Source of the DNA: Escherichia phage ES
Sequence record: OR466728.1
DNA length: 48,315 nt
Strand: one strand, 5' to 3'
Part shown: positions 1 to 48,315 of the stretch, piece after piece
Layout: every line of letters begins with the position of its first letter
How positions within the stretch are numbered: the stretch's first letter is position 1
Translations under genes and position numbers: made by a program
The notes under the pieces: generated by a model
Databases searched by the model: none
Seen by the model: the letters and a program-made list of their open reading frames with translations, nothing else
Told to the model about the DNA's origin: nothing

Positions 1-211
1 GATTAATGGGTCGTAGTTGCAAAAGTTGCACTCAAGAATTTATCGCGTCGGTTACTGCTAAGTCCTCAGAGGAAGCAGTAGCGAAAGTTAAGGTAATGTC
101 TGGTGCCGACCCGGATTACCACAAATTCCTAGTAGCTTACGTTCGTGAGCGAAAGTAAAAGAAGTTCTACTCTCTGTTTGTTTCATATCTCTCGTTGTTG
201 TTCGATACTTC

Positions 212-6337: not shown

Positions 6338-6390
6338 ATTGCCTTTTATCTGATAGAATGGTAATCACCACAAATAGTCAGGAGATTCAA

Positions 6391-7851
6391 ATGGAGTTAG
6401 TTGAAATCGCTTCAAATAGCTGCGAAGGACTTGAGGCAAAAGCGAAGGCTTTAATGCCATCATTTCAGCCTTATGACAGTATTATTCTGGTAGGTGACTT
6501 GCCAGTCAGGTGTTTAATGGCGTCTGGAACAGACCTAAGCATTACTGATATCAAGTTCCTAACTTTCGGTAGCCGAGCAAGGCTAATCACTGAAATTAAC
6601 AAGATGATTGCTGATGGTTGGGAGATTTTCGGCGAGCCAAAGGCTGACGCAAACAGATTTGGCACAATTATGACCAAAGGCTTTCAGGGCGCTAAGGGTA
6701 CGGCTGGTGTCGCTGGCCCGCAAGGTCCGCAGGGCGTTCAGGGTTTGCAGGGTCCAGAAGGCCCGCAAGGTCCAAAAGGTAATGATGGCGATGATGGTTC
6801 TCAAGGTGAGCGAGGACCACAAGGTCCGCAGGGTATCCGTGGCGAGCAAGGCGTTCAAGGTCCGCAGGGCATCCAGGGGCCAATCGGCTTAACTGGTGAT
6901 ACAGGTCAGCAGGGGCCAGCTGGTCCAACTGGTGCTACTGGTCCTCGTGGACCTCAAGGTGTGCAAGGTGAGGCTGGTCCTGCTGGCGCTACAGGTCTGG
7001 AATTTAAAGGCGCATGGGCTCCAGGTATCGAATACAAAGCAAACGACGCAGTGGCTTATAACGGTTCAACATGGTTTGCTGTGACTGGAAATACAGACGA
7101 GACACCAGGGACGGGAACATCATGGCAGGTAATGGCATCACAAGGTTCTCGCGGACCAGCCGGACCAGAAGGCCCGCAAGGTGATGTTGGCCCGCAAGGT
7201 GAGCAAGGAATTCAAGGACCAATCGGAGCAACTGGACCATCTGGACCTCAGGGCGCAAAAGGTGATACAGGAGACACTGGACCAGCAGGACCAGAAGGAC
7301 CACAAGGTTTAACTGGACCAGCCGGACCGCAAGGCATTCAAGGACCAGCTGGTGTTCGAGGTGCTACTGGTGCAACTGGTGTAAACGGAGCTAATGGCGC
7401 CACAGGACCGCAAGGGCCAGCTGGACCAAATGGTGATTCAGGTCTTAATTACACATATCAGAAATGGTCAAACGTAGCAAATGGCGTTGGGTATGTAACA
7501 ATCCCCGGGATGCCTAATACACAAATAGGAGTTAACAGGAATTCTGCCGGAGCAATTGTGTACACTCTCTATAGTACTGGTGGAACCGTTAGGTATCTTG
7601 ATTGGCGCGCTGAGATACCATCATATGATACAAATGCAATAACCACGGCTGCTGGCACGGCGACAACACCAAGCTCTGCTGGTGTAATAGCAACGATGAA
7701 TACCGTTTTATATAATGGGTTAAGATCAGTCAAATTTATAATTAAGGATTGGGGCGCATCAAGGATTGCTGTAATTGAATGTTACCAACACGGAAGGGCT
7801 AACTCAGACGCGAGGCCTGTTACTATCGAGATGCGCTCATTCTCTTACTAA
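6391..7851 (+). CDS. collagen-like (Gly-X-Y) repeat protein
   Basis: two long uninterrupted G-X-Y tracts (about 6679-6997 and 7141-7453) flanked by globular N- and C-terminal domains; RBS CAGGAG. Confidence 0.8.
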
Positions 7852-22910: not shown

Positions 22911-23000
22911 TACACCTATTTACGCCTCGATACGCCATAGTTACATTAAAATATCTATATATATCAACCCTTTACTCTTATTATTATTATTATATATATT
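22911..23000. repeat. control-region repeat block 1 (copy A) with (TA)n/(TTA)n microsatellite
   Basis: about 80% identical to 43029-43121 by eye, including ATATCTATATATATCAACC..TTTACT..ATTATTATTATTAT. Confidence 0.6.
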
Positions 23001-23143
23001 ACTGTGTATATCATGTAACTACTATTCTGTAGTGTTCCGGTTATAATTTTTATATCATGTGATTTTATACAGTATTGCGAGGCACCCATACCTATGCACC
23101 ATCCGCCAAGATCGGTATACACGATATACGCACCATTTACATT

Positions 23144-23197
23144 GAGCTATAGCTGGGCTCAGGCAGTGAAAAACGTAACCAATAGAAATGTCTACAC
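23144..23197. repeat. control-region repeat block 2 (copy A)
   Basis: AGCTATAGCTGGGCT...AAAACGTAACCAAT matches 43256-43308. Confidence 0.6.
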
Positions 23198-24487: not shown

Positions 24488-24968
24488 TTGATAAATTTAA
24501 TGATATCTTTAGATATGATGGTGAAAAGCTGTACTATAAAAACTGGGTAAACGGTAGAAGTAAGTCTCTTGGACTAGAGGCTGGTAGCAAACAGAATGGT
24601 TACTTGAAAGTTACAATTGGCGGCAGAAATTATAAAGTTCATAGAATTATATGGGAAATGGTTAATGGTGAAATACCTGATGGAATGGAATAGATCACAT
24701 AAATCACGTAAAGGATGATAATAGGATTGAGAATCTAAGGCTGGTAACTCACAAGGAAAACTCAAGAAATAGGAAAAAGAGGTCAGATAACTCTTCAGCA
24801 ACACAGGGCGTTTCTCTGCATAAGATTACAAGGAAGTGGCAATCTTATTGCTCTGATAATGATGGAAAAATTATGTACCTTGGATTATTTGAGGATATTA
24901 ATGATGCTATTGATGCTAGGGTTAAGTTCGCCTCACAATGTGACTTCCATGAGAATCATGGTAAATAG
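24484..24968 (+). pseudogene. HNH endonuclease, frameshifted (1-nt deficit near 24689-24691)
   Basis: N-part VHRIIWEMVNGEIPDGME in frame 1 and C-part IDHINHVKDDNRIENLRLVTHKENSRN in frame 0; paralogue of intact 41210-41707. Confidence 0.6.
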
Positions 24969-29801: not shown

Positions 29802-30275
29802 TTACTCTTTAGCTTTTCGTGCTGCTTCGTTAGCGGCCTTAATCTTGCGCCATGATCGACACTCTGGCTTGGTGGCTAGCTCTGCTTCAGTAACTACGCG
29901 AAGCATATGACGCTTCTTACATCGAAGTGTTAGCGGCTTACCGTTTCCGTCGAATTGCAGGTCTGGTCGGCAGAACGTAGCTCGAAATCCTTCCTTATTT
30001 CTCTTATACGCATTGTGAGCTTTCTGCGCTCCTCGAGCCGAAATCATCCCGCGATCAAACCATTGCTCTACAGTCTGGTGAGATACGTTTAACTGCTTTG
30101 CGATGTTCGCCTTTGTTCCATAGAAATCAAGAACCATCTCCAGGCGAGCACGTAGCCCAGCCTTTACCTCATCTTTCAATACGTAGTAGCCTGACGGTCG
30201 TTTGCGTTGCTTCTTGTCTTGTGTGCGTACCGTTCCGTTATTGCCGTTAATAGTTCGTTTGTCAATTTCACACAT
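29802..30275 (-). CDS. HTH DNA-binding protein (candidate transcription regulator)
   Basis: 157 aa, basic, HTH-like GTKANIAKQLNVSHQTVEQWFDRG; RBS GAGG; a dyad box overlaps its 5' region. Confidence 0.5.
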   Translation of the reverse strand: MCEIDKRTINGNNGTVRTQDKKQRKRPSGYYVLKDEVKAGLRARLEMVLDFYGTKANIAKQLNVSHQTVEQWFDRGMISARGAQKAHNAYKRNKEGFRATFCRPDLQFDGNGKPLTLRCKKRHMLRVVTEAELATKPECRSWRKIKAANEAARKAKE

Positions 30276-30371: not shown

Positions 30372-33300
30372 ATGCTTCCAGTAGAGCGCTTAGTGGCAAA
30401 CTTTGATCAAGAGAAAATCAAACAGATTCAGAAAGATTACCAGTTTGGAGACATAACTCCTTACGAATTCCAGTGTGTAACATTTGACGCAATTGGTAAG
30501 GCTATTGGTAAGTACGAGGCTCCATTCATCGCAGACCTGTCTGTATCTGCTGGTAAAACAATAATTCTTGCCATGATTGGGAAAAGAATGGAGCAACTTG
30601 GACTTCCTTATATGGTACTGTCTCGCCAGTCAGAGATTATCAGCCAGAACGCAGAGGAACTCCGTAACTTCGGTATCCGTAATAGCGTCTATTGCGCTGG
30701 ACTTAACGTTAAATCAGTTTACTACCCAACCATAGTGGCTAGTGAGGGTACAGCTGCCAATGGCCTGTTTAAGGGGCTTGGTGACTATGTTCCTGCTGTT
30801 ATCGCGATAGATGAGTGCTTAACTGGAGACACGATGATAACCACCGATTCAGGGATGATGAGGATTGATAGCGAAGACCTTATCAATCATAAAATAAAAT
30901 GCATAAACGAAAGCACTGGTGATTACTTCTATCATAAGCCAAAAAGAGTTTTTACTAATGGTGTAAGACATGTATCATCAATTAAATTAGAAAGCGGAGA
31001 GGAAATAAAATGCACGAGTACACACAAACTTTATTCGAACGGCTGCTGGGTAGGAGCGGGAAAACTTCGTATTGGGATGAATCTGTCGCTAGACGGCTCG
31101 CAGGACAAATTTACGAAAAAGCTCCTGCGTGCAAGTGTGGCTGTGGTGAAAAAGTTATGCCGCATTCAAGCAAGGGGTTAGGCGTACTTCTTAAGAACCC
31201 TTTCGATTTCTATTTGGATTACAGAACGGGGCATCATAATTCAACCGTCAACCCATCAATGGAGGTTGATGACTTTTTACATCAAAACATTCTTGCGGCA
31301 ATGGCTGGTGATGGTTGCTTGATTAAAAATACAGAAAAAGGAACGCATAGGCTATCTTGGAATATGGGAAATAAGGAGCACGCACTAAGCAAGGTTGAAA
31401 GGTTTGCAAAACTAAACCCTAGATACAGGGAGAAGAAAAACCCTGGATTTGGCGACAACTGGTTTTGCGTATCAACATCATGTACGAAAGTTCTGGATTC
31501 ATATGCTGATAAGTACGGAAATTCTAAGGATGGTTACGATATTGGAAAGATATGCAGAGAGCTTGATCCAGTTGGTTGGGCTGCTTACTTTGGTGATGAT
31601 GGTCATTGCACTGTAAGCTCAGGGAAGAGGGTTGTAGAAATCCACACCGAATCATTTAGCAGGCGTGAAGTTCAATCAGTAGTTGATGCGCTAATAGCAT
31701 TTATTGCTAATGACGGAGTTAATGTTAGAAGCTATATTGGCGGCAAGAAAAAGAGAGAGCTTTACTCAGTATCAATAACAACGAGGTCGGCACAAGATGA
31801 GTTTTTTAAGAGAATTAGTAAGCACATGGAAAATGGCGTGGAATACAAAATCAAGCAAAATTAAAGACATCTCACCCATTGGCAAGGAACTTGTTTGGGA
31901 TATAGAGATGCCTGAGCACCATAATTTCATTGCTGACGGGGTCGTGGCACATAATTGCCACATGGTGGACCATATGGATATCGTAGAAGCTGAAGAGAAT
32001 GAGGAAACATTCGAGCAGATGAGCACGAAGAAGGGTGAGATGGTCTTTAAGGATGGTGTGAATACCGGGCTTCTTGGCACTGGTCGCGCGCAATACACGT
32101 TAATCATTACCGAAATGAAGCGTCGATGCAAGGAGAAGTACGGTCGCGAACTTCGTATCTTTGGGTTAACTGGTAGCCCGTACCGTAACAACGACCACAT
32201 TGTAGTTAGTAACCCAAATGTCCGTGGATTCTGGCGCAAAACTGTAATGCAAGTGCCAACCAGCTACCTTGTTGACTTGGGGTTCGTTGTTCCTACTGTC
32301 TACGGTGAAGTTGGTGATTTGGGCTACGACCTTAGTGAGTTCACTCCTGATGGAAGTGATGGGGTTAAGGACTTCAGCAAGAAAGAAATGGATGCGATGG
32401 CTGCAAAGATTCACGAAAACCAAACGATGACACAAAAGATAATGGGATTTGCTGCTAGGTTTATGGAAACAAGGAATGCTGCATTGGTAACTTGCGCTGG
32501 CAAACAGCATTGCGAGGAGGCGGCAGCCGCACTTCCAGAAGGTGTTACTTGGGCGATAGTTACCAACTCCACTGGTGATAAGAAGCGTAGAGAGATACTT
32601 GAGAAGGCAGCCAGCGGAGAATATAAGTTCATATTTCAGATTGGTTGCCTCACAACTGGCGTAAACTGCCCCCCGTGGGATACAAGCATTATCCTGAGGA
32701 AGGTTGGTAGCATTACTCTACTCATTCAGTTGCTTGGTCGTGGTATGCGTATCCTTAAGAAGAAGCACAAAGAAGCTGGAATGGTAAAAGATGACCATGT
32801 TGTTCTTGATTTTGCCGGGACGCTTGACGATATGGCAGAACTCTACTTCGACCCAATTATAGAAGAGGTTCAGGACCAGAAGTTTAAGTCATCCAGGAAA
32901 GGGGGTGATGAACCAAGAATTTGCCCAGCATGTTCTTATGAGAATTCTCCTTTCGCACGGCGCTGTAATAATGTGATTGACGGTAAACGATGCGAGCATT
33001 TTTTTCAGTTCCGTCTTTGCGAAGATATTGAGGACCCGCAGACGAAAGTTATCGTTAAGAAAGGTTGCGGAGAGAAAAATGACGTTGCAGCAAAGAACTG
33101 CCGCTGCTGCGGAGAGATGCTGATAGACCCAAATGCAAAGCTATCTGGAAAAATGTATCGGAAAGGGGACTGGTTGAGAGTTTATGACTTCAAGATTGGG
33201 TTGACAAAAAACCAGTCAGGGATCGTTGCTTCATATGAGGTAATGGCTCATAGTGGAGATAAGTTCCGAGCTTATGAAACATTCTTCCCGGAGTCAGACC

Positions 33301-33506
33301 ATCGTGTTTGTTCTGTCAAATGGAAGGCGTTTTGCTCAACTCACATCGAGAACAGGACTGAGGCTTTTAGGATTGGCAGATTGCGTAATGCTAAAATGAT
33401 TATGACAAATGCACATCTTTTCCGTGCGCCGCTAAGGATTACGCACCGCAAGAATCAGAAGTCGCAAGATATTATCGCCAACAAATCATTTACGATGGAG
33501 GATTGA
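30372..33506 (+). CDS. SF2 DExH-box DNA helicase, interrupted by an intein (exteins 30372-30815 and 31956-33506)
   Basis: Walker A SVSAGKT; motif II DE|CH restored on excision; three track ORFs (30372, 31010, 31797) belong to one gene. Confidence 0.75.
30816..31955 (+). mobile_element. intein with LAGLIDADG homing-endonuclease domain (1140 nt, 380 codons)
   Basis: starts CLTGDTMI, block B TSTHKL, LAGLIDADG-like ILAAMAGDGCL and AAYFGDDGHC, ends NFIADGVVAHN before +1 Cys; endonuclease domain is in a different frame. Confidence 0.8.
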
Positions 33507-34005: not shown

Positions 34006-34194
34006 ATGAAAGACATTATTACTAAAGAATCCCAAAGCTACTACGCCTCATACTATGAGACAGTTAATGGTTTTAAATTTATTGATATAGAGCAAGGTGG
34101 AAACGCCGTTACGCTAACTAGCGAAAAAGATTTAAATGACATGATTTCGTTCTTAGAAAAAGTGAAAGAGCATTTAAATAGCACGAATTGCTAA
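34006..34194 (+). CDS. hypothetical protein (C-terminus NSTNC)
   Basis: 62 aa, RBS AAAGAGAGAGA; last five codons are encoded by the next dyad box. Confidence 0.5.
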   Translation: MKDIITKESQSYYASYYETVNGFKFIDIEQGGNAVTLTSEKDLNDMISFLEKVKEHLNSTNC

Positions 34195-34796: not shown

Positions 34797-35041
34797 TAGT
34801 TGAAACCGGACGCGCCGCAGTTTGGGCGCATTGCGGAGAGGCGGGATTGCAGGATGACATCAAGAAAATATCTAAATACTTCGATATTCAAGAAATCAGC
34901 GTTGTCTACGGCGGTAAGTTTTCATATATACAAGATCGTCCAAGGAAATATGTAAGAGTTAAACCAGGTGCCAGGATTGATGTTAACGAGTTCCTTAAAT
35001 CTGAGGGATTCAAGTTTAAGATAACGAAGCATAAGGATTAA
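34793..35041 (+). CDS. hypothetical protein
   Basis: 82-aa ORF, ATGA overlap with upstream stop. Confidence 0.45.
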   Translation: MIVETGRAAVWAHCGEAGLQDDIKKISKYFDIQEISVVYGGKFSYIQDRPRKYVRVKPGARIDVNEFLKSEGFKFKITKHKD

Positions 35042-35043
35042 TC

Positions 35044-35190
35044 ATGAAGCCACACGAATATTCAGCATTGGTTAACGGGTTACTTGAGGTTTCTATAAAA
35101 TTCAAGGATACGCAGCAGTTAAGGGAGCAGCTATCACGAGAACTCTCAAGGCATGGTATTAGACCGAGTCATAAGATGGAAAAGGATTGA
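35044..35190 (+). CDS. hypothetical small protein
   Basis: 48-aa ORF below the track cut-off, fills the gap between flanking genes. Confidence 0.3.
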   Translation: MKPHEYSALVNGLLEVSIKFKDTQQLREQLSRELSRHGIRPSHKMEKD

Positions 35191-35192
35191 GC

Positions 35193-35444
35193 ATGTTGGG
35201 TTTAGATTTTCAGCCGGAGCATTACGATTTAGTATATGGTCAAAGTGGTGCGAAGTTTAGAGCGATACCTATTTCTGACTGGTTTCCTCCTGACTACGTG
35301 GATGTTAATGCGAAGACGAAGGATGGTAAATGGGTACAGATTTACTATTCCCCAGCGTGCGGGAATCTCTGCATGACAGACCTGGACCAGAAATTAGAAA
35401 TTAGTGCAGATTTAATTGATTACTGGTTGAAAGAGGTTGTATGA
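35193..35444 (+). CDS. hypothetical protein
   Basis: 83 aa from ATG 35193, RBS AAGGA. Confidence 0.45.
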   Translation: MLGLDFQPEHYDLVYGQSGAKFRAIPISDWFPPDYVDVNAKTKDGKWVQIYYSPACGNLCMTDLDQKLEISADLIDYWLKEVV

Positions 35445-35515
35445 AGTACACAGCCCTAGTAGCATTAGTACCACTGTTTAGCTTTACTATCTTATATTTT
35501 ATTGTGATGAACTAA
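35441..35515 (+). CDS. hydrophobic micro-peptide (24 aa, putative membrane)
   Basis: MKYTALVALVPLFSFTILYFIVMN; RBS AAGAGG 5 nt upstream; ATGA overlap with upstream stop. Confidence 0.3.
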   Translation: MKYTALVALVPLFSFTILYFIVMN

Positions 35516-35525
35516 GGACTTAAAA

Positions 35526-36659
35526 ATGGCAGCATCAAAGATTACAAATGAACAGCTTATCGAAGAGCTGAAAAGCGGCCTGACTAACAAGGCAATTGCA
35601 GAGAAGTACGGCATGAATATTCGCAACGTTGAGCTTCGTCGCAGTAAGTTGGCTAAGAGTGGTATTGGGCATGGTAATGAAGGTATCAAGAAGCTAGTTC
35701 CTGACGGTTATTTAGTCAAGGGCACCTCAACAATGATTGATGCGGAAGGGAATGAGAAGCTGCGTTGGGTTAAGACTTCGATTGATGCTGAGAAGCAAGA
35801 AGAGATGCTTCAGCAGATTGTTAAGGCTCTTACAGACGAGGTTCCTCGCGAGACTCCAAAGCCACTCAGTGAATCAAGCTATGAAGATACATTGAGTCTC
35901 TACCCTGTATTTGATATGCACATTGGCGCAATGGCTCACCATGCAGAGTGTGGGGAGAACTACAGTACAGAAATTGCAGAGCGAGTGCTTAACCAATACT
36001 TTGATTATGCAGTTGCTAAGGCCCCGAATTCATCAAAAGCCGTATTACTGATTGGTGGAGACTTCCTTCACTCGGATGGAATGGAAGCTGTAACTCCAAC
36101 CAGCAAGCACGTACTTGATCAAGATAGCCGTTATCATAAACTTGTCTACGTAGCTGTTCGTGCAACTCGCCGCGCCGTCAGTAAGATGCTTGACAAGCAT
36201 AAAGAGGTTGAGGTTCAGATTATACCAGGCAACCACGACCTTTCTGGGATGATTTGGCTTCGAGCTGCAATGGCTGCCTTCTACATGGATGAGCCTCGTG
36301 TAAATGTTGATGCCTCACCAGCCGCTCTTCACGTGACGGAGTTTGGTAAAACATTGTTGGGTTACTGCCATGGTCATGAATTGCGAAAGCCTGACACTCG
36401 TCTTTCAACTCTTGCGCGCGACCATCGCAAAGCATTTGGTAATGCTGAATACGTTTATACACATAGTGGCCATTATCATCATCAGACGGTTACTGAGGGT
36501 AATCTTGGAATTGATGAGTCACACGGTCAGTTGGGTGCTAAAGATGCGTACAGCGCAAACGGAGGGTATCGCTCTTATCGTCAGGCCTCAGTAATTATCT
36601 ATAGCTCAGAGTACGGTGAAGTTGGTCGATTCACTTGCCGACCTGAAATGTTTAAGTAA
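35526..36659 (+). CDS. calcineurin-like metallophosphoesterase with N-terminal HTH domain
   Basis: phosphoesterase motifs DMHIG, GGDFLHSD, PGNHD; N-terminal HTH-like LTNKAIAEKYGMNIRNV. Confidence 0.55.
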   Translation: MAASKITNEQLIEELKSGLTNKAIAEKYGMNIRNVELRRSKLAKSGIGHGNEGIKKLVPDGYLVKGTSTMIDAEGNEKLRWVKTSIDAEKQEEMLQQIVKALTDEVPRETPKPLSESSYEDTLSLYPVFDMHIGAMAHHAECGENYSTEIAERVLNQYFDYAVAKAPNSSKAVLLIGGDFLHSDGMEAVTPTSKHVLDQDSRYHKLVYVAVRATRRAVSKMLDKHKEVEVQIIPGNHDLSGMIWLRAAMAAFYMDEPRVNVDASPAALHVTEFGKTLLGYCHGHELRKPDTRLSTLARDHRKAFGNAEYVYTHSGHYHHQTVTEGNLGIDESHGQLGAKDAYSANGGYRSYRQASVIIYSSEYGEVGRFTCRPEMFK

Positions 36660-36677
36660 TAGCACTTTTTGTTAATA
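36660..36677 (+). promoter_or_regulatory. dyad box copy 10 (TAGCACTTTTTGTTAATA)
   Basis: immediately after the TAA stop of 35526-36659; ATG of 36733 is 73 nt downstream; -10 weak (CAAAAT). Confidence 0.4.
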
Positions 36678-36732
36678 AAGCCTCAAAGGATTGAGGCAAA
36701 ATGAATAAACGATAACGATATGAGGAGTTGTA

Positions 36733-37206
36733 ATGATTTACGTGTTTGATATTGATGGAACTGTTGCTAACAATGAACATAGAAGCCACCTCTTACCATC
36801 TAGTGACCTTCACTTGACTTCAAGTTGGAGTGATTACAATAGAGCCTGTTCTGGAGATTCACCGATAATCCCAATGATAAACATGATGAATGCGTTAGCT
36901 GAGTTATCGCCAGTTTACATCATGACTTCAAGAAGTGACGAAGTCGAATGTATGACGCTTGAATGGCTTCAGTATAATAATATTAATTATGATGGAATAT
37001 ATATGAGGAGTAGATTGGATAACAGAAATGACTATATCATTAAAGAGATGTGGCTAAATGATTTGTGTAATGGTGACAAAGCAAGTGTGATAATCTTTGA
37101 GGATAATCCTAATGTTATCAGTCACCTAAGGAATTGCGGATATACTGTAATGTCAGTTTGTGAATATAAAGAATTACCAAAAGACTGCGAATCTCACGGA
37201 GAATAA
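36733..37206 (+). CDS. HAD-superfamily phosphatase (polynucleotide 3'-phosphatase-like)
   Basis: motif I VFDIDGTV at N-terminus; 157 aa; RBS GAGGAG. Confidence 0.55.
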   Translation: MIYVFDIDGTVANNEHRSHLLPSSDLHLTSSWSDYNRACSGDSPIIPMINMMNALAELSPVYIMTSRSDEVECMTLEWLQYNNINYDGIYMRSRLDNRNDYIIKEMWLNDLCNGDKASVIIFEDNPNVISHLRNCGYTVMSVCEYKELPKDCESHGE

Positions 37207-37207
37207 A

Positions 37208-37762
37208 ATGAAAAAGTTAATCATCCTTAATGCACCCCCTGGTGCTGGAAAAGATACAGTTGCAGATATCATTGTTAATCTTGGAATTTGCAAGGATAAG
37301 GTTTCATTCAAGTCACCAATGTTTAATGTTGCAAAAGGAATACTATCAAGTGATGAGTTTGATGGATTTATTAATAATTACGATGACCGAGAGTACAAAG
37401 AATCACCACACGAATTTCTTGGTGGAATGACTGTTCGTGAATTTATGATTTGGATTAGCGAATCAGTTATGAAGCCAGTCTTTGGTGATGATGTTTTCGG
37501 CAAAAGGCTCACACAATCACTTGGTGATGGATGCTACATTTGTTCAGACGGTGGATTTGCGAGTGAAATCGAACCACTGATTGGCAACGGCGTTGAGGTT
37601 ACATTGATTAGGCTTCACAGGCCTGGTTATACTTTCGAAGGAGATAGTAGGTCATACCTTAGTTGCGTCTGCGCAAGAGAGATTGATGTTGATGTTATTG
37701 AAGGTGATATTAAAAGAACTACAGAAAAAGTAATTAGTGCAATCAATAGCACGAATTGCTAA
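37208..37762 (+). CDS. P-loop kinase (nucleotide or polynucleotide kinase-like)
   Basis: Walker A LNAPPGAGKDT at residues 6-16; 184 aa from ATG 37208 (RBS GGAG); ends NSTNC inside a dyad box. Confidence 0.55.
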   Translation: MKKLIILNAPPGAGKDTVADIIVNLGICKDKVSFKSPMFNVAKGILSSDEFDGFINNYDDREYKESPHEFLGGMTVREFMIWISESVMKPVFGDDVFGKRLTQSLGDGCYICSDGGFASEIEPLIGNGVEVTLIRLHRPGYTFEGDSRSYLSCVCAREIDVDVIEGDIKRTTEKVISAINSTNC

Positions 37763-37764
37763 AC
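37747..37764 (+). promoter_or_regulatory. dyad box copy 11 (TAGCACGAATTGCTAAAC)
   Basis: overlaps the last codons of 37208-37762; AATAAT about 23 nt downstream, CATCGAAAAC; ATG of 37821 is 74 nt downstream. Confidence 0.5.
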
Positions 37765-37820
37765 AATCACCTTAGAGATGCGGAATAATCAACACATCGA
37801 AAACAAGAGAGGATTCAAAA

Positions 37821-41194: not shown

Positions 41195-41212
41195 CATTAT
41201 CAATTTGTGCTA
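41195..41212 (-). promoter_or_regulatory. dyad box copy 12 (minus strand TAGCACAAATTGATAATG)
   Basis: TAG is the stop of HNH gene 41210-41707; perfect TATAAT 22 nt downstream on minus strand; 56 nt upstream of ATG 41139. Confidence 0.5.
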
Positions 41213-41707
41213 TTTGCCATGATTTGGGTGATAACCCAGCCTCACCTCTGCAACAATTCTTGCCTCACATGCAGAGATAAAGTCATCAAAAAAACCAAGG
41301 TGAACAGTCTTTCCACCACTCTGTATTGAGGCCCTCCACTTACCTGTTCTTTTGTATATGGCGACTCCAGTTACACCACTTTTATTATCAAACCTTAATG
41401 ATGAGTTCATTGAATTCACTTTTTGGGTAACAAGCCTTAGATTTTCAATCCTATTGTCACGCCTATTTCCATTTATGTGGTCTATGAATAGACAATCAGG
41501 TATGTCTCCATTAGTCATCTCCCATATAATTCTGTGAGCCATTGTGTAGCCGATTCCCTTATTGCTAACCCTAACGTACCCGCTTGTTGTAACCTCCGTG
41601 TTAACTGGCTTATTTGCATATTTTGTATTCCAAGATTGAGTTCTATCTGACCTCTCCTTTCTGTACAAAACTGAATCTTTTATATAAAAAATTTCATTCC
41701 AGTTCAT
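41210..41707 (-). CDS. HNH homing endonuclease
   Basis: AHRIIWEMTNGDIPDCLFIDHINGNRRDNRIENLRLVTQKVN; ATG 41707 overlaps upstream stop (ATGA). Confidence 0.7.
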   Translation of the reverse strand: MNWNEIFYIKDSVLYRKERSDRTQSWNTKYANKPVNTEVTTSGYVRVSNKGIGYTMAHRIIWEMTNGDIPDCLFIDHINGNRRDNRIENLRLVTQKVNSMNSSLRFDNKSGVTGVAIYKRTGKWRASIQSGGKTVHLGFFDDFISACEARIVAEVRLGYHPNHGK

Positions 41708-42090
41708 GAGTATTTTGCTTCCATTTTGTATGTGCCACACAATGTTTTAAAGCCAACGTCATCCCTGTACAGCTGCCATGCAAAGCCACCCTCATCATAG
41801 ATGTACCCCGCTTGCTGGCCCAGTCCAGAGTGAAGGTTTACGATATATCTCTTGCCTTCTTTGAAGTCTTTCTTAACTCCTGACTTATGGTTAACATTAG
41901 TGCAGTAAAGCGTCTTCGTCTTAATGTATTTCCCACGCTCTTCAAGATTAATCCACTTGCCATTTTTCTTGATTTGCTCAAATTCAACTTCCTCAGCGAC
42001 ACCGTTAACCCACTGGTGAATCTTTTTAACGCGAGCTTTAAACAGTTTGTTATCGTTGCTAATCCAATTTTTGGTTATCGTAGTAGTCAT
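41704..42090 (-). CDS. hypothetical protein
   Basis: 128-aa ORF, RBS AGAGAG upstream of ATG 42090. Confidence 0.45.
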   Translation of the reverse strand: MTTTITKNWISNDNKLFKARVKKIHQWVNGVAEEVEFEQIKKNGKWINLEERGKYIKTKTLYCTNVNHKSGVKKDFKEGKRYIVNLHSGLGQQAGYIYDEGGFAWQLYRDDVGFKTLCGTYKMEAKYS

Positions 42091-43028: not shown

Positions 43029-43121
43029 ATACACGCCTACCACGCGAGATTACGCAATGGTTACATAATAATATCTATATATATCAACCTTTTACTATAT
43101 TATTATTATTATTATATATAT
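43029..43121. repeat. control-region repeat block 1 (copy B) with (TAT)n microsatellite
   Basis: matches 22911-23000. Confidence 0.6.
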
Positions 43122-43255
43122 GTATGTATATGGTGTAGATTGGTCGTATGGATGGGTCGATAGTTTTTCTATGAAAACTACTAATTTTATCTATATAGAT
43201 ACATATGCATACCCCCGGCGAATCCGCGTAAAATCTTACACAGGGTAATTACACC

Positions 43256-43308
43256 AGCTATAGCTGGGCTGAGAGGTCAAAAAGCGTAACCAATGCAGAT
43301 ATAAACAC
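43256..43308. repeat. control-region repeat block 2 (copy B)
   Basis: matches 23144-23197 (AGCTATAGCTGGGCT...GCGTAACCAAT). Confidence 0.6.
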
Positions 43309-45673: not shown

Positions 45674-46096
45674 ATGAAATTAAGCAAATCTCAAAGGGAA
45701 GAGTTGAAGGGCAAGTTCGGTGGTCGCTGCGCTTATTGTGGGTGTGAACTACCTGAGAAAGGCTGGCATGCTGACCATGTTGAACCGGTGCTACGTAAAT
45801 CTGAGGTATGCATGAAGGCAGCGGAGAAAGGAACTTTCAAGCTGAAGGCGACAGGTGAGTTTAATCGACCACAAGCTGATCGAATGGAAAACCTTTACCC
45901 TGCATGTGCTCCATGCAACCTCATGAAAACTTGCTATTCCCTTGAAATGTTCAGGGAACAGGTGTCTCTTCAAGTCGCTCGCGGGCGTAAGAGCAGCATG
46001 AATTTTCGCACGGCAGAGCGGTTCGGCCTCATCTCCATAGTGGAGGATCCAGTTGTTTTCTGGTTTGAGAAGTTTGAGCAAATTAACAAAATCTGA
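45674..46096 (+). CDS. HNH endonuclease (zinc-finger HNH type)
   Basis: CAYCGC...WHADHVEPV...NLYPACAPCN motif arrangement. Confidence 0.65.
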   Translation: MKLSKSQREELKGKFGGRCAYCGCELPEKGWHADHVEPVLRKSEVCMKAAEKGTFKLKATGEFNRPQADRMENLYPACAPCNLMKTCYSLEMFREQVSLQVARGRKSSMNFRTAERFGLISIVEDPVVFWFEKFEQINKI

Positions 46097-47782: not shown

Positions 47783-47995
47783 ATGAAAAAAGTAACAATC
47801 ATCGTAAAAGATATTGAAAGCGGCACTTCCCAAAAATTCAACGCAACACTTGACCGTGAACATAAATGCTTAAAGGGTGTGATTGGCGGGGTTTCAGTTA
47901 GCGCGGATATTAAAGGTTATCTCGAGCTTGAAAGAGAAATTCAAAACTATAGCAATCAGAGCGGGAAGATAAAAAATGCAGCTCTGGGATGTTAA
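47783..47995 (+). CDS. hypothetical protein
   Basis: 70-aa ORF, RBS GGGGGA; last gene before the junction with position 1. Confidence 0.45.
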   Translation: MKKVTIIVKDIESGTSQKFNATLDREHKCLKGVIGGVSVSADIKGYLELEREIQNYSNQSGKIKNAALGC

Positions 47996-48004
47996 GCTTT
48001 CAAT

Positions 48005-48160
48005 CTGCTTCCTCTGAGGACTTAGCAGTAACCGACGCGATAAATTCTTGAGTGCAACTTTTGCAACTACGACCCATTAATCGGATTGAAAGCTTAACAT
48101 CCCAGAGCTGCATTTTTTATCTTCCCGCTCTGATTGCTATAGTTTTGAATTTCTCTTTCA
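48005..48160. other. 156-nt fold-back: reverse complement of the end-to-start junction (probable assembly artefact)
   Basis: 48005-48082 is the exact reverse complement of 1-78; 48083-48160 is the reverse complement of 47929-48004 plus CC. Confidence 0.7.

Positions 48161-48315
<155 letters not shown>

What the first reader, a model, noticed from the sequence alone, without database searches (positions are those of the whole stretch)
35526..36659. Metallophosphoesterase fused to an N-terminal HTH domain
A roughly 120-residue N-terminal region with an HTH-like segment precedes a calcineurin-like phosphoesterase core (DxH, GDxxHSD, GNHD). The fusion suggests a DNA-targeted nuclease or phosphatase, or a second candidate for binding the dyad boxes.
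Basis: partly seen in the sequence, partly recalled or inferred. Interest (0 to 1): 0.4.

Follow-up and report, generated by a model that had tools for sequence, protein, structure and literature searches.

The report
Phage nuclease-like phosphoesterase with DNA-binding head
This T1-like coliphage gene encodes a metal-dependent phosphoesterase of the Mre11/SbcD nuclease type with a small DNA-binding (helix-turn-helix) domain at its front end; it belongs to a very common but untested phage family and is a reasonable candidate for the still-unidentified enzyme that lets T1-like phages break down the host chromosome.

Summary
ORF 35526..36659 (+, 377 aa) encodes an N-terminal three-helix HTH (residues 8-44), a conserved beta-hairpin plus helix (62-105), and a calcineurin-type metallophosphoesterase core (119-377). 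All metal-binding motifs are invariant across 60 diverse relatives.

The window is a T1-like coliphage, 100% identical to phage AN_ECEAS. The protein is an ordinary member of PHROG 704 ("DNA repair exonuclease"). That family occurs in about 2,000 phage genomes and is a core gene next to the lysis cassette in 508 of 522 Drexlerviridae.

The HTH is real, but the proposed link to the "dyad boxes" is not supported. The boxes are directional promoter modules already described in phage TLS. They are absent from a Kagunavirus that encodes a homolog with a 53%-identical N-terminal 60 residues.

New here: the gene travels with a HAD phosphatase and a dNMP-kinase-like gene as a three-gene cassette in unrelated phage backbones.

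Best reading: a DNA-tethered nuclease, possibly the unidentified T1 host-DNA-degrading enzyme. This is untested. Interest is modest.

The parts
35514..35518 (+). Ribosome-binding site AAGGA, 7 nt before the ATG
   Evidence: Read directly from the sequence
35526..36659 (+). Complete CDS, 377 aa: HTH, beta-hairpin/helix, then metallophosphoesterase (PHROG 704)
   Evidence: ORF list; PHROG 704 E=6.8e-150 over residues 4-376; 100% identical to a hypothetical protein of Escherichia phage AN_ECEAS
35547..35657 (+). Three-helix HTH domain, residues 8-44 (helices 8-16, 21-27, 32-44; the last is the presumed recognition helix NIRNVELRRSKLAK)
35658..35708 (+). Low-confidence linker, residues 45-61 (SGIGHGNEGIKKLVPDG)
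   Evidence: pLDDT 62-70 in both models
35709..35840 (+). Conserved beta-hairpin (62-86) plus long helix (88-105); family signature VPDGFxVKGxST..G....WVKT with W81 invariant; role unknown, possibly an accessory substrate-binding element
   Evidence: Alignments; secondary structure of the models
35880..36656 (+). Calcineurin-type binuclear metallophosphoesterase core, residues 119-377
35913..35921 (+). Motif I, D130-M-H132 (metal ligands), followed by G134
   Evidence: Invariant in 60 sequences
36057..36077 (+). Motif II, G178-D179-F-L-H182-S-D184 (bridging aspartate; GDxxH as in Mre11's GDLFH, the latter from my own knowledge)
   Evidence: G178 and D179 invariant, H182 and D184 at least 90% conserved
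36078..36131 (+). Family-specific conserved loop, residues 185-202 (VTPTSKHVLDQDSR; T190, P191, D200, R202 invariant); low model confidence, likely a substrate-contact loop
   Evidence: Alignment invariants; pLDDT about 60 for residues 181-200
36228..36239 (+). Motif III, G235-N236-H237-D238
   Evidence: G235, N236, H237 invariant
36369..36377 (+). Motif IV, H282-G283-H284
   Evidence: Invariant
36468..36479 (+). Motif V, G315-H316-Y-H318
   Evidence: H316 and H318 invariant
36733..37206 (+). Downstream partner 1: HAD-type phosphatase (PNKP phosphatase domain)
   Evidence: Pfam PF25109 E=6.4e-15; phrog_415 and phrog_505; immediately follows MPE homologs in unrelated phages
37208..37762 (+). 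Downstream partner 2: P-loop kinase of the dNMP-kinase family (likely start is the ATG at 37208)
   Evidence: phrog_139 E=8.6e-45; same trio in L047 and in a Yersinia phage
34179..34193 (+). Nearest upstream promoter box (TAGCACGAATTGCTA), likely driving the run of small ORFs that ends with this gene
36660..36674 (+). Promoter box (TAGCACTTTTTGTTA) starting one base after the stop codon; serves the phosphatase and kinase genes, not part of the protein's function

Best explanation
The gene encodes an active binuclear (Mn2+/Fe-type) metallophosphoesterase of the nuclease-like branch of the superfamily, the branch that holds Mre11, SbcD and PolD DP1. A flexible linker joins the enzyme to an N-terminal three-helix HTH.

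Proposed mechanism: the HTH holds the enzyme on duplex DNA, probably with little sequence specificity. The core then hydrolyses DNA phosphodiester bonds as an exo- and/or endonuclease, without needing a Rad50/SbcC-type ATPase.

Proposed role in T1-like phages: breakdown of the host chromosome into nucleotides for reuse, with the two downstream genes (a HAD phosphatase and a dNMP-kinase-like kinase) processing the products.

Shown here: the architecture, the intact catalytic motifs, the fold relationships, the distribution and the gene linkage. Inferred, not shown: DNA as the substrate, HTH-DNA binding, and the host-degradation role.
For: - Intact active site. All seven canonical metal ligands plus H237 are invariant in 60 relatives down to 30% identity, so this is an enzyme and not an inactivated scaffold.
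- HTH. Confirmed by profile, fold and family-wide Pfam hits. An HTH-type hit at about residues 12-48 recurs in most of the divergent full-length homologs checked: RcIroh HTH_28, Vibrio phage HTH_8 (weak, E=0.045), P0177 HTH_30. The Yersinia-phage homolog and P0155 gave none.
- Gene linkage. The MPE, HAD phosphatase and dNMP-kinase-like genes occur as a tight trio in part of the Drexlerviridae. They also form an opposite-strand island inside the tail module of a Guernseyvirinae-type phage that shares no other neighbour with this window. A Yersinia phage has the same trio.
- An open slot in T1 biology. T1 and TLS degrade the host genome and reuse its nucleotides, and the responsible gene has not been identified (PMC11447400, section 19).
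- Precedents. T5 A1, a predicted metallo-phosphatase, is necessary and sufficient for host chromosome digestion (bioRxiv 10.64898/2026.04.02.716235), and some A1-family members also carry N-terminal HTH domains. Mycobacteriophage A10ZJ24 gp48, an MPE, is a DNase in vitro and degrades host DNA in vivo (PMC12287305).
- Persistence. The gene is present in 508 of 522 Drexlerviridae (PMC13164509).
Against: - No biochemical or genetic data exist for any member of this family.
- The family is not detectably related to T5 A1 (hhalign 25%, HTH segment only) or to Bxb1 gp47 (3%) beyond superfamily level. Those are analogies, not homologs.
- The phosphatase and kinase partners accompany only about 19 of 80 sampled homologs.
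- Homologs also occur in a temperate phage with an integrase and in groups not known to degrade host DNA.
- The HTH recognition helix is poorly conserved across the family, so nothing can be said about a specific target sequence.
Confidence: 0.35

Rival explanations
1. It is a replication or recombination nuclease. An Mre11-like enzyme would process phage DNA ends, flaps or hairpins to feed the phage RecE/Erf/SSB recombination-dependent replication, rather than attack host DNA.
For: DP1, Mre11 and SbcD are the closest folds. In T1-like phages the gene lies in the same + strand block as the helicase and VRR-NUC genes. Annotators call it 'DNA repair exonuclease' or 'proof-reading exonuclease' (PMC11447400). 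From my own knowledge, the Bxb1 gp47 metallophosphoesterase is needed for phage DNA replication.
Against: No Rad50/SbcC-like ATPase is present in the window or its relatives. T1-like phages already encode RecE, Erf and SSB. In Guernseyvirinae-type phages the gene sits as an island in the tail module, far from the replication genes. In several distant phages it lies beside lysis or tail genes.
Confidence: 0.2
2. It is the phosphodiesterase arm of a Pnkp-like nucleic-acid end-healing cassette. The MPE would remove blocked or damaged termini or 2',3'-cyclic phosphates, the HAD enzyme would remove 3'-phosphates and the kinase would phosphorylate 5'-OH ends. Together they would repair phage or host nucleic acids nicked by host defences.
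For: The MPE/HAD/kinase trio is conserved across unrelated phage backbones. The HAD protein matches the PNKP phosphatase domain PF25109 (E=6.4e-15), the C-terminal half of phrog_505 'polynucleotide kinase' and, weakly, Pnkp1. There is a weak NCBIfam hit to the ligase-associated endonuclease PdeM. From my own knowledge, bacterial Pnkp combines a kinase with a calcineurin-type phosphoesterase.
Against: No ligase gene was seen in the window or its relatives. The kinase matches the dNMP-kinase family phrog_139, not a polynucleotide kinase. Most family members lack the two partners. An HTH is not a feature of known end-healing enzymes.
Confidence: 0.2
3. It is an anti-defence phosphodiesterase that destroys host immune signalling nucleotides (cyclic oligonucleotides or similar). 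The HTH would be incidental or would serve in protein-protein contact.
Against: The HTH is near-universal in the family. The gene is a persistent core gene of Drexlerviridae, not an accessory one (PMC13164509). There are no matches to PADLOC models. Its linked genes deal with nucleotide monophosphates and DNA ends, not with immune signals.
Confidence: 0.07
4. It is primarily a transcription factor that binds the TAGCA-N5-TGCTA promoter boxes through its LuxR-like HTH, with the enzyme domain secondary.
For: The HTH is of the LuxR/sigma-70 region 4 type. The box dyad is centred near -42 relative to the -10-like element, a position used by class II activators (plus my own reckoning). One box begins one base after the gene's stop codon.
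Against: There are zero boxes in a Kagunavirus genome that encodes a homolog with a 53%-identical N-terminal 60 residues. The family is much wider than the boxes (2,045 records against the T1-like group). A box drives the operon that contains the gene itself, and boxes precede nearly all units, so a pre-existing factor is needed. The catalytic motifs are invariant while the recognition helix is not. A dedicated regulator with the matching T1-like-only distribution exists at 29802..30275.
Confidence: 0.05

Closest known systems
PHROG 704 ('DNA repair exonuclease'; rtp61 in phage Rtp, probably gp66 'proof-reading exonuclease' in TLS; named 'winged helix-turn-helix domain-containing protein' or 'metallophosphoesterase' by NCBI)
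   Same: Full-length match, E=6.8e-150, including the N-terminal region. Same length, motifs and position upstream of the lysis cassette (PMC13164509).
   Different: Nothing differs; the window's protein is an ordinary member. The family name comes from similarity only, and I found no member that has been tested.
Archaeal PolD small subunit DP1 (3'-5' proofreading exonuclease; 5ihe)
   Different: Only 12% identity and no sequence-level hit. No DP2 catalytic partner, and T1-like phages encode no DNA polymerase at all (PMC11447400). DP1's OB fold is replaced here by an HTH plus a beta-hairpin and helix.
Mre11 / SbcD / T4 gp47 nucleases
   Different: No C-terminal capping domain: the chain ends with the core at residue 377. 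No Rad50/SbcC partner gene. No NCBIfam or Pfam family-level hit. Carries an N-terminal HTH instead.
Phage T5 A1 (PHROG 1745), the predicted metallo-phosphatase that drives host-DNA degradation
   Same: A phage metallophosphoesterase linked to DNA. A1 works with a DNA-binding protein, A2, and about 530-aa A1-family members carry an N-terminal HTH. Motif III and its extension look alike (SNHDLALSRWL against GNHDxxSSxWLR).
   Different: Profile-profile comparison finds only the HTH segment, at 25% probability. A1 is 556 aa with a large extra middle region, and its other motifs differ (GDIHAEK, HDxxDFxxRNHHN). Not the same family.
Mycobacteriophage Cluster A metallophosphoesterase (A10ZJ24 gp48, Bxb1 gp47; PHROG 221)
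   Same: A phage MPE with demonstrated phosphodiesterase and DNase activity that degrades host DNA (PMC12287305). The alignment to this family is in register over motifs II-V.
   Different: hhalign probability is only 3%. It is 255 aa with motif I at residue 10, so it has no HTH and no hairpin module. It belongs to a different PHROG.
Pseudomonas putida MPE / PdeM (ligase-associated DNA-damage endonuclease)
   Different: Score far below the family cut-off (18 against 150 bits). No Lhr helicase or ligase neighbours. No HTH in PdeM.

Membership tests
Calcineurin-like metallophosphoesterase superfamily | Five motifs providing the binuclear metal site: DxH, GD, GNH[DE], H, GHxH | tested here: met
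   D130/H132, G178/D179, G235/N236/H237/D238, H282/H284 and G315/H316/H318 are all present and invariant in 60 relatives
Calcineurin-like metallophosphoesterase superfamily | Alpha/beta sandwich fold | tested here: met
Calcineurin-like metallophosphoesterase superfamily | Pfam PF00149 at or above the gathering score | tested here: inconclusive
   19.6 bits against a cut-off of 21.5 for this sequence. 14 of 48 family members hit it, best E=7.2e-6
PHROG 704 | Full-length match to the family profile | tested here: met
   E=6.8e-150, residues 4-376 on profile positions 2-389 of 390
Mre11/SbcD nucleases | C-terminal capping domain after the phosphoesterase core | tested here: not met
   The model ends with core strands 354-371 and a 4-residue helix; there is no extra C-terminal domain
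Mre11/SbcD nucleases | Partner Rad50/SbcC ATPase gene | tested here: not met
   None among the window's ORFs or in the annotated relatives SU57 and ACG-M12
Mre11/SbcD nucleases | Nuclease activity on DNA ends or hairpins | not testable with these tools
   Needs biochemistry
PolD DP1 / polymerase B-subunits | OB fold preceding the phosphodiesterase domain, and association with a DP2 or family-B catalytic subunit | tested here: not met
   The N-terminal module is an HTH plus hairpin and helix. No polymerase gene in T1-like phages (PMC11447400)
T5 A1 family (PHROG 1745) | Profile-level homology across the enzyme core | tested here: not met
   hhalign of the two family alignments matches only the HTH segment, at 25% probability
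Cluster A mycobacteriophage MPE (PHROG 221; Bxb1 gp47 / A10ZJ24 gp48) | Profile-level homology | tested here: not met
   hhalign probability 3%, although the motifs align in register. Bxb1 gp47 hits phrog_221 and not phrog_704
LuxR/GerE / sigma-70 region 4 type HTH | Helix-turn-helix within a small helical bundle, recognisable by sequence profile and by fold | tested here: met
LuxR/GerE / sigma-70 region 4 type HTH | Fourth (dimerisation) helix of the GerE domain | tested here: not met
   The models show only three helices (8-16, 21-27/28, 32-44) followed by a low-confidence linker
LuxR/GerE / sigma-70 region 4 type HTH | Binding to DNA | not testable with these tools
   Needs a gel-shift or footprinting assay
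PPP-type Ser/Thr phosphatases (lambda phosphatase type) | Signature motifs GDxHG, GDxVDRG, GNHE (from my own knowledge) | tested here: not met

The most novel reading that the evidence does not exclude
The HTH-metallophosphoesterase would be the long-unidentified nuclease that T1-like phages use to destroy the host chromosome, the function lost in the classical T1 high-transduction mutants of Roberts and Drexler (1981). Together with the HAD phosphatase and the dNMP-kinase-like gene it would form a mobile three-gene 'host DNA to nucleotides' salvage cassette that has moved between unrelated phage families.
Probability: 0.3. Interest if true: 0.55.

Novelty: new member of a known kind. Interest (0 to 1): 0.33.

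Why it matters
T1-like phages are classic model phages, notorious laboratory contaminants and common therapy candidates. The gene responsible for their breakdown of the host chromosome is still unassigned (PMC11447400). This protein is a core gene of the family and of about 2,000 sequenced phages, yet no member has been tested.

If it is the host-DNA nuclease, three things follow:
- It would explain nucleotide reuse in phages that lack their own polymerase.
- It would predict which phages are poor or good generalized transducers, which matters for therapy safety.
- It would add a third independent case, after T5 A1 and mycobacteriophage gp48, of phages recruiting metallophosphoesterases for host-genome destruction.

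If it is not, it remains a routine "DNA repair exonuclease" annotation with a correctly recognised HTH.

Tried and rejected
- Direct sequence search of the protein and of the family profile against solved structures. There were no hits to the enzyme core, only to the HTH, so fold search was needed.
- T5 A1 as a true homolog. Rejected: single-sequence and profile-profile comparisons match only motif III or the HTH, at 19-25% probability. It is kept as an analogy.
- Bxb1 gp47 / A10ZJ24 gp48 as a homolog. Rejected at family level (3% probability, different PHROG).
- Defence or anti-defence libraries. No PADLOC hits. Only far sub-threshold NCBIfam hits to PdeM and a 'DS9 anti-phage phosphoesterase'.
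- HTH as the dyad-box binder. Rejected on distribution and on box architecture.
- Reading the box as a sigma-54 promoter (TGGCAC-N5-TTGC). Rejected by my own count: the two half-sites are 2 nt too close, and a -10-like element follows.
- Reading TTGCTA as a sigma-70 -35 element. The spacer to the -10-like hexamer is about 22 nt, which is too long.
- Short Vibrio-phage homologs as HTH-less variants. Rejected: the annotated protein is 415 aa and shows a weak HTH_8 hit at residues 16-44.
- Literature. No paper in the library links this family to an experiment. The Nature 2026 STAND paper and the PUA-Cal-HAD preprint do not mention it.
- Solved-structure searches for the kinase and phosphatase partners were uninformative.
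I could not check how the HTH sits relative to the active site, or surface charge.
Full report
**What is there.** The ORF is exactly as reported: 35526..36659, + strand, 377 aa, ATG start. An AAGGA ribosome-binding site lies 7 nt upstream. The quoted motifs are present: D130-M-H132, G178-D-F-L-H-S-D184 and G235-N-H-D238. So are H282-G-H284 and G315-H-Y-H318.

**Where the window comes from.** The window is a T1-like siphovirus. The stretch 35000-37800 is 100% identical to Escherichia phage AN_ECEAS (PP944860), where this protein is annotated as hypothetical. It is about 80% identical at DNA level to Braunvirinae such as SU57 and ACG-M12.

**How common the family is.**
- The protein matches PHROG 704, "DNA repair exonuclease", over its whole length (E=6.8e-150).
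- tblastn finds it in 2,045 phage records. These include T1-like phages of Escherichia, Klebsiella and Shigella, Guernseyvirinae (Kagunavirus and Jersey-like), Dhillonvirus, and Rhodobacter, Ruegeria, Vibrio, Flavobacterium and Campylobacter phages.
- An exhaustive search gives 4,695 clusters at 50% identity with E ≤ 1e-3.
- A published pangenome study lists it as a persistent gene beside the lysis cassette in 508 of 522 Drexlerviridae (PMC13164509).
- So the protein is an ordinary member of a very large, phage-restricted and experimentally untouched family.

**N-terminal region.** On its own the sequence gives only a weak HTH_24 hit (E=0.07). The family evidence is much stronger.
- Diverse members hit Sigma70_r4_2 (1.5e-9), GerE (2.4e-8), HTH_8, HTH_1, HTH_28, HTH_23 and others.
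- A profile of residues 1-122 hits dozens of solved LuxR/FixJ/GerE and LysR DNA-binding domains, all in the same register.
- AlphaFold models of the full protein (pLDDT 85.8) and of residues 1-122 (pLDDT 80.0) both give helices 8-16, 21-27 and 32-44.
- An HTH-type hit at about residues 12-48 recurs in most of the divergent full-length homologs checked (RcIroh, a 415-aa Vibrio-phage protein at E=0.045, P0177). The Yersinia-phage homolog and P0155 gave none.
- The HTH has three helices and lacks the fourth helix of a GerE domain.
- After it come a low-confidence linker (45-61), then a beta-hairpin (62-86) and a long helix (88-105). This second module is better conserved than the HTH itself (W81 invariant; G66, S68, G75 and K83 in at least 90%). 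Its role is unknown.

**Enzyme core.**
- Residues 119-377 form a metallophosphoesterase sandwich.
- All canonical metal ligands and the motif III histidine are invariant in 60 relatives down to 30% identity, so the enzyme should be active.
- A family-specific loop between motifs II and III (VTPxSxHxLDxDxR; T190, P191, D200 and R202 invariant) is strongly conserved but modelled with low confidence. I take it to be a likely substrate-contact element; this is inference.
- Sequence profiles find no solved relative of the core.
- The predicted viral structure library shows the same fold and similar length in many other phage proteins (Roseovarius, Campylobacter, Lactobacillus, Bacillus and Cellulophaga phages). 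These are unnamed or labelled "DNA polymerase II small subunit" by similarity.
- The protein has no capping domain. There is no Rad50/SbcC gene, and T1-like phages have no polymerase (PMC11447400). It therefore works like, but is not a member of, the Mre11/SbcD or DP1 families.

**Gene context.**
- In the window the gene ends a run of small + strand ORFs that follow the helicase and VRR-NUC genes.
- Downstream come a HAD-type phosphatase (PNKP phosphatase domain, E=6.4e-15), a dNMP-kinase-family P-loop kinase, and then holin, endolysin and spanin.
- I compared 80 homolog loci from viral contigs with the window's neighbours. The phosphatase and kinase follow the gene in one subset of the Drexlerviridae.
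- They also follow it at only 12 nt distance in a group at 45-46% identity that shares no other neighbour with this window.
- In that group (locus L047) the three genes form an opposite-strand island between the minor tail/tail-tube genes and the tail-chaperone/tape-measure genes of a Guernseyvirinae-type phage.
- A Yersinia phage has the same trio. Other homologs have the phosphatase alone, or neither partner. About 19 of 80 loci have at least the phosphatase.
- This recurrence in unrelated backbones argues that the three products act on related substrates.
- Elsewhere the gene tends to lie next to lysis or tail genes rather than replication genes.

**The dyad boxes.**
- TAGCA-N5-TGCTA occurs 18 times with one mismatch allowed, against 2.25 expected.
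- Oriented with the flanking genes, the boxes are part of a directional module: AATAGCACgaaTTGCTAAAg, about 22 nt, a TATAGT-like -10 element, CATCGAAAC, a ribosome-binding site, then ATG. This module lies in front of nearly every transcription unit.
- The same 21-nt repeat was described in phage TLS, with unknown function (PMC11447400).
- One box starts one base after this gene's stop codon and serves the next genes. The nearest upstream box (34179) heads the run of ORFs that contains this gene.
- The boxes are present in SU57 and ACG-M12. They are absent from the whole genome of Kagunavirus fFiEco02, whose homolog has a 53%-identical first 60 residues.
- The 157-aa regulator at 29802..30275 has a T1-like-only distribution, which fits the boxes better.
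- I therefore do not support the idea that this protein is a box binder. Only a binding assay can exclude it.

**Comparison with characterised phage metallophosphoesterases.**
- T5 A1, a predicted metallo-phosphatase, is necessary and sufficient for host chromosome digestion and acts with the DNA-binding protein A2 (bioRxiv 10.64898/2026.04.02.716235).
- I found that about 530-aa A1-family members carry N-terminal HTH domains. That is a parallel architecture. Profile-profile comparison shows no specific relationship.
- Mycobacteriophage A10ZJ24 gp48 (the Bxb1 gp47 family) is an MPE with demonstrated DNase activity that degrades host DNA (PMC12287305). It aligns in register over the motifs, but only at 3% probability, and it lacks the N-terminal modules.
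- These two are functional precedents, not relatives.

**Most likely mechanism.** I commit to an HTH-tethered, metal-dependent DNA nuclease that needs no ATPase partner.
- My estimate that DNA is the substrate is about 0.6 to 0.65.
- For the biological role I favour host-chromosome breakdown coupled to nucleotide reuse, at about 0.3 to 0.35. The reasons: T1 and TLS do this with an unidentified enzyme (PMC11447400), the gene is core to the family, two independent phage MPEs do this job, and the gene travels with a dNMP-kinase-like gene.
- The rivals are a replication/recombination end-processing nuclease (0.2), the phosphodiesterase arm of a Pnkp-like end-healing cassette (0.2), an anti-defence nucleotide phosphodiesterase (0.07) and a box-binding transcription factor (0.05).
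- None of these can be separated further without experiments.

**Novelty and value.** Public annotation already covers both halves of the architecture ("metallophosphoesterase", "winged helix-turn-helix domain-containing protein", "DNA repair exonuclease"). This work adds three things:
- a firm structural assignment of the three N-terminal elements;
- the negative result on the dyad boxes;
- the recurrent three-gene cassette and a concrete, testable candidate for an old open question in T1 biology.

I rate it a new member of a known kind, of modest interest.

**Limits.** No structure coordinates were available for inspecting how the HTH sits relative to the active site. The neighbourhood survey used tblastn with this window's proteins only, so divergent partners would be missed. 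The statements about Mre11's GDLFH motif, T4 gp46/47, the role of Bxb1 gp47 in replication and the classical T1 mutants rest on my own knowledge, not on tool output.

Noticed in passing
window 30372-33506: The replicative helicase gene is interrupted inside its DExH box (AIDE|C...VVAHN|CH). ORF1 (30372..31181) is helicase-N plus about 120 aa of intein N-terminal region (CLTGDTMITTDSG...) and ends in a stop. ORF2 (31010..31864, another frame) is a LAGLIDADG homing endonuclease. ORF3 (31797..33506) has its own ATG, then a 53-aa intein C-terminal region, then helicase-C. ORF1 and ORF3 share a frame, with 10 stops between them. This looks like a 'fractured gene': a split intein with a free-standing homing endonuclease between the halves. 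A promoter box lies at 31695, about 100 nt before ORF3. In SU57 and ACG-M12 the helicase is one uninterrupted ORF.
   Followed up: partly
window 47929-48315 and 1-78: Positions 48005-48082 are the exact reverse complement of window 1-78. They lie within an 82-nt inverted repeat and are followed by about 150 nt of poly-G. This is almost certainly an assembly or sequencing artefact at the contig end, not phage sequence.
   Followed up: partly
window, 18 sites (e.g. 2890, 24966, 28757, 33925, 34179, 36660, 37747, 42156, 45200): The 'dyad boxes' are directional promoter modules: AATAGCACgaaTTGCTAAAg, about 22 nt (often a small hairpin), a TATAGT-like -10, CATCGAAAC, RBS, ATG. The 22-nt gap is too long for TTGCTA to be a sigma-70 -35, and the dyad centre falls near -42, a position used by class II activators. 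They are known from phage TLS as a 21-nt repeat of unknown function (PMC11447400). What recognises them is unexplained.
   Followed up: partly
window 29802-30275 (- strand): A 157-aa predicted transcriptional regulator with weak excisionase/DicC-type HTH hits. It is found only in T1-like phages (824 records), the same distribution as the promoter boxes, so it is a better candidate box binder than the finding's protein.
   Followed up: partly
window 35526-37762; L047 7896-10170; L003 4986-7278: The MPE, HAD phosphatase and dNMP-kinase-like genes form a three-gene cassette that recurs in unrelated phage backbones. In a Guernseyvirinae-type phage it is an opposite-strand island within the tail module.
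   Followed up: yes
window 6358-7851: A 497-aa ORF with long collagen-like Gly-X-Y repeats (GGT/GGA-rich 9-nt periodic repeats at 6685-7444) lies within the head/structural region.
   Followed up: no
window 22931-23197 and 43051-43308: Two roughly 75%-identical copies of a long AT-rich non-coding stretch (TACGCxATxGTTACAT...TATATATATCAACC... and AGCTATAGCTGGGCT...) lie 20.1 kb apart in direct orientation. Their function is unknown (families D7 and D11).
   Followed up: no
window 41210-41740 (-), 45674-46096 (+): Two further free-standing HNH homing-endonuclease genes. An inverted repeat pair at 24639-24765 / 41410-41537 suggests a related HNH-like sequence near 24.7 kb.
   Followed up: no
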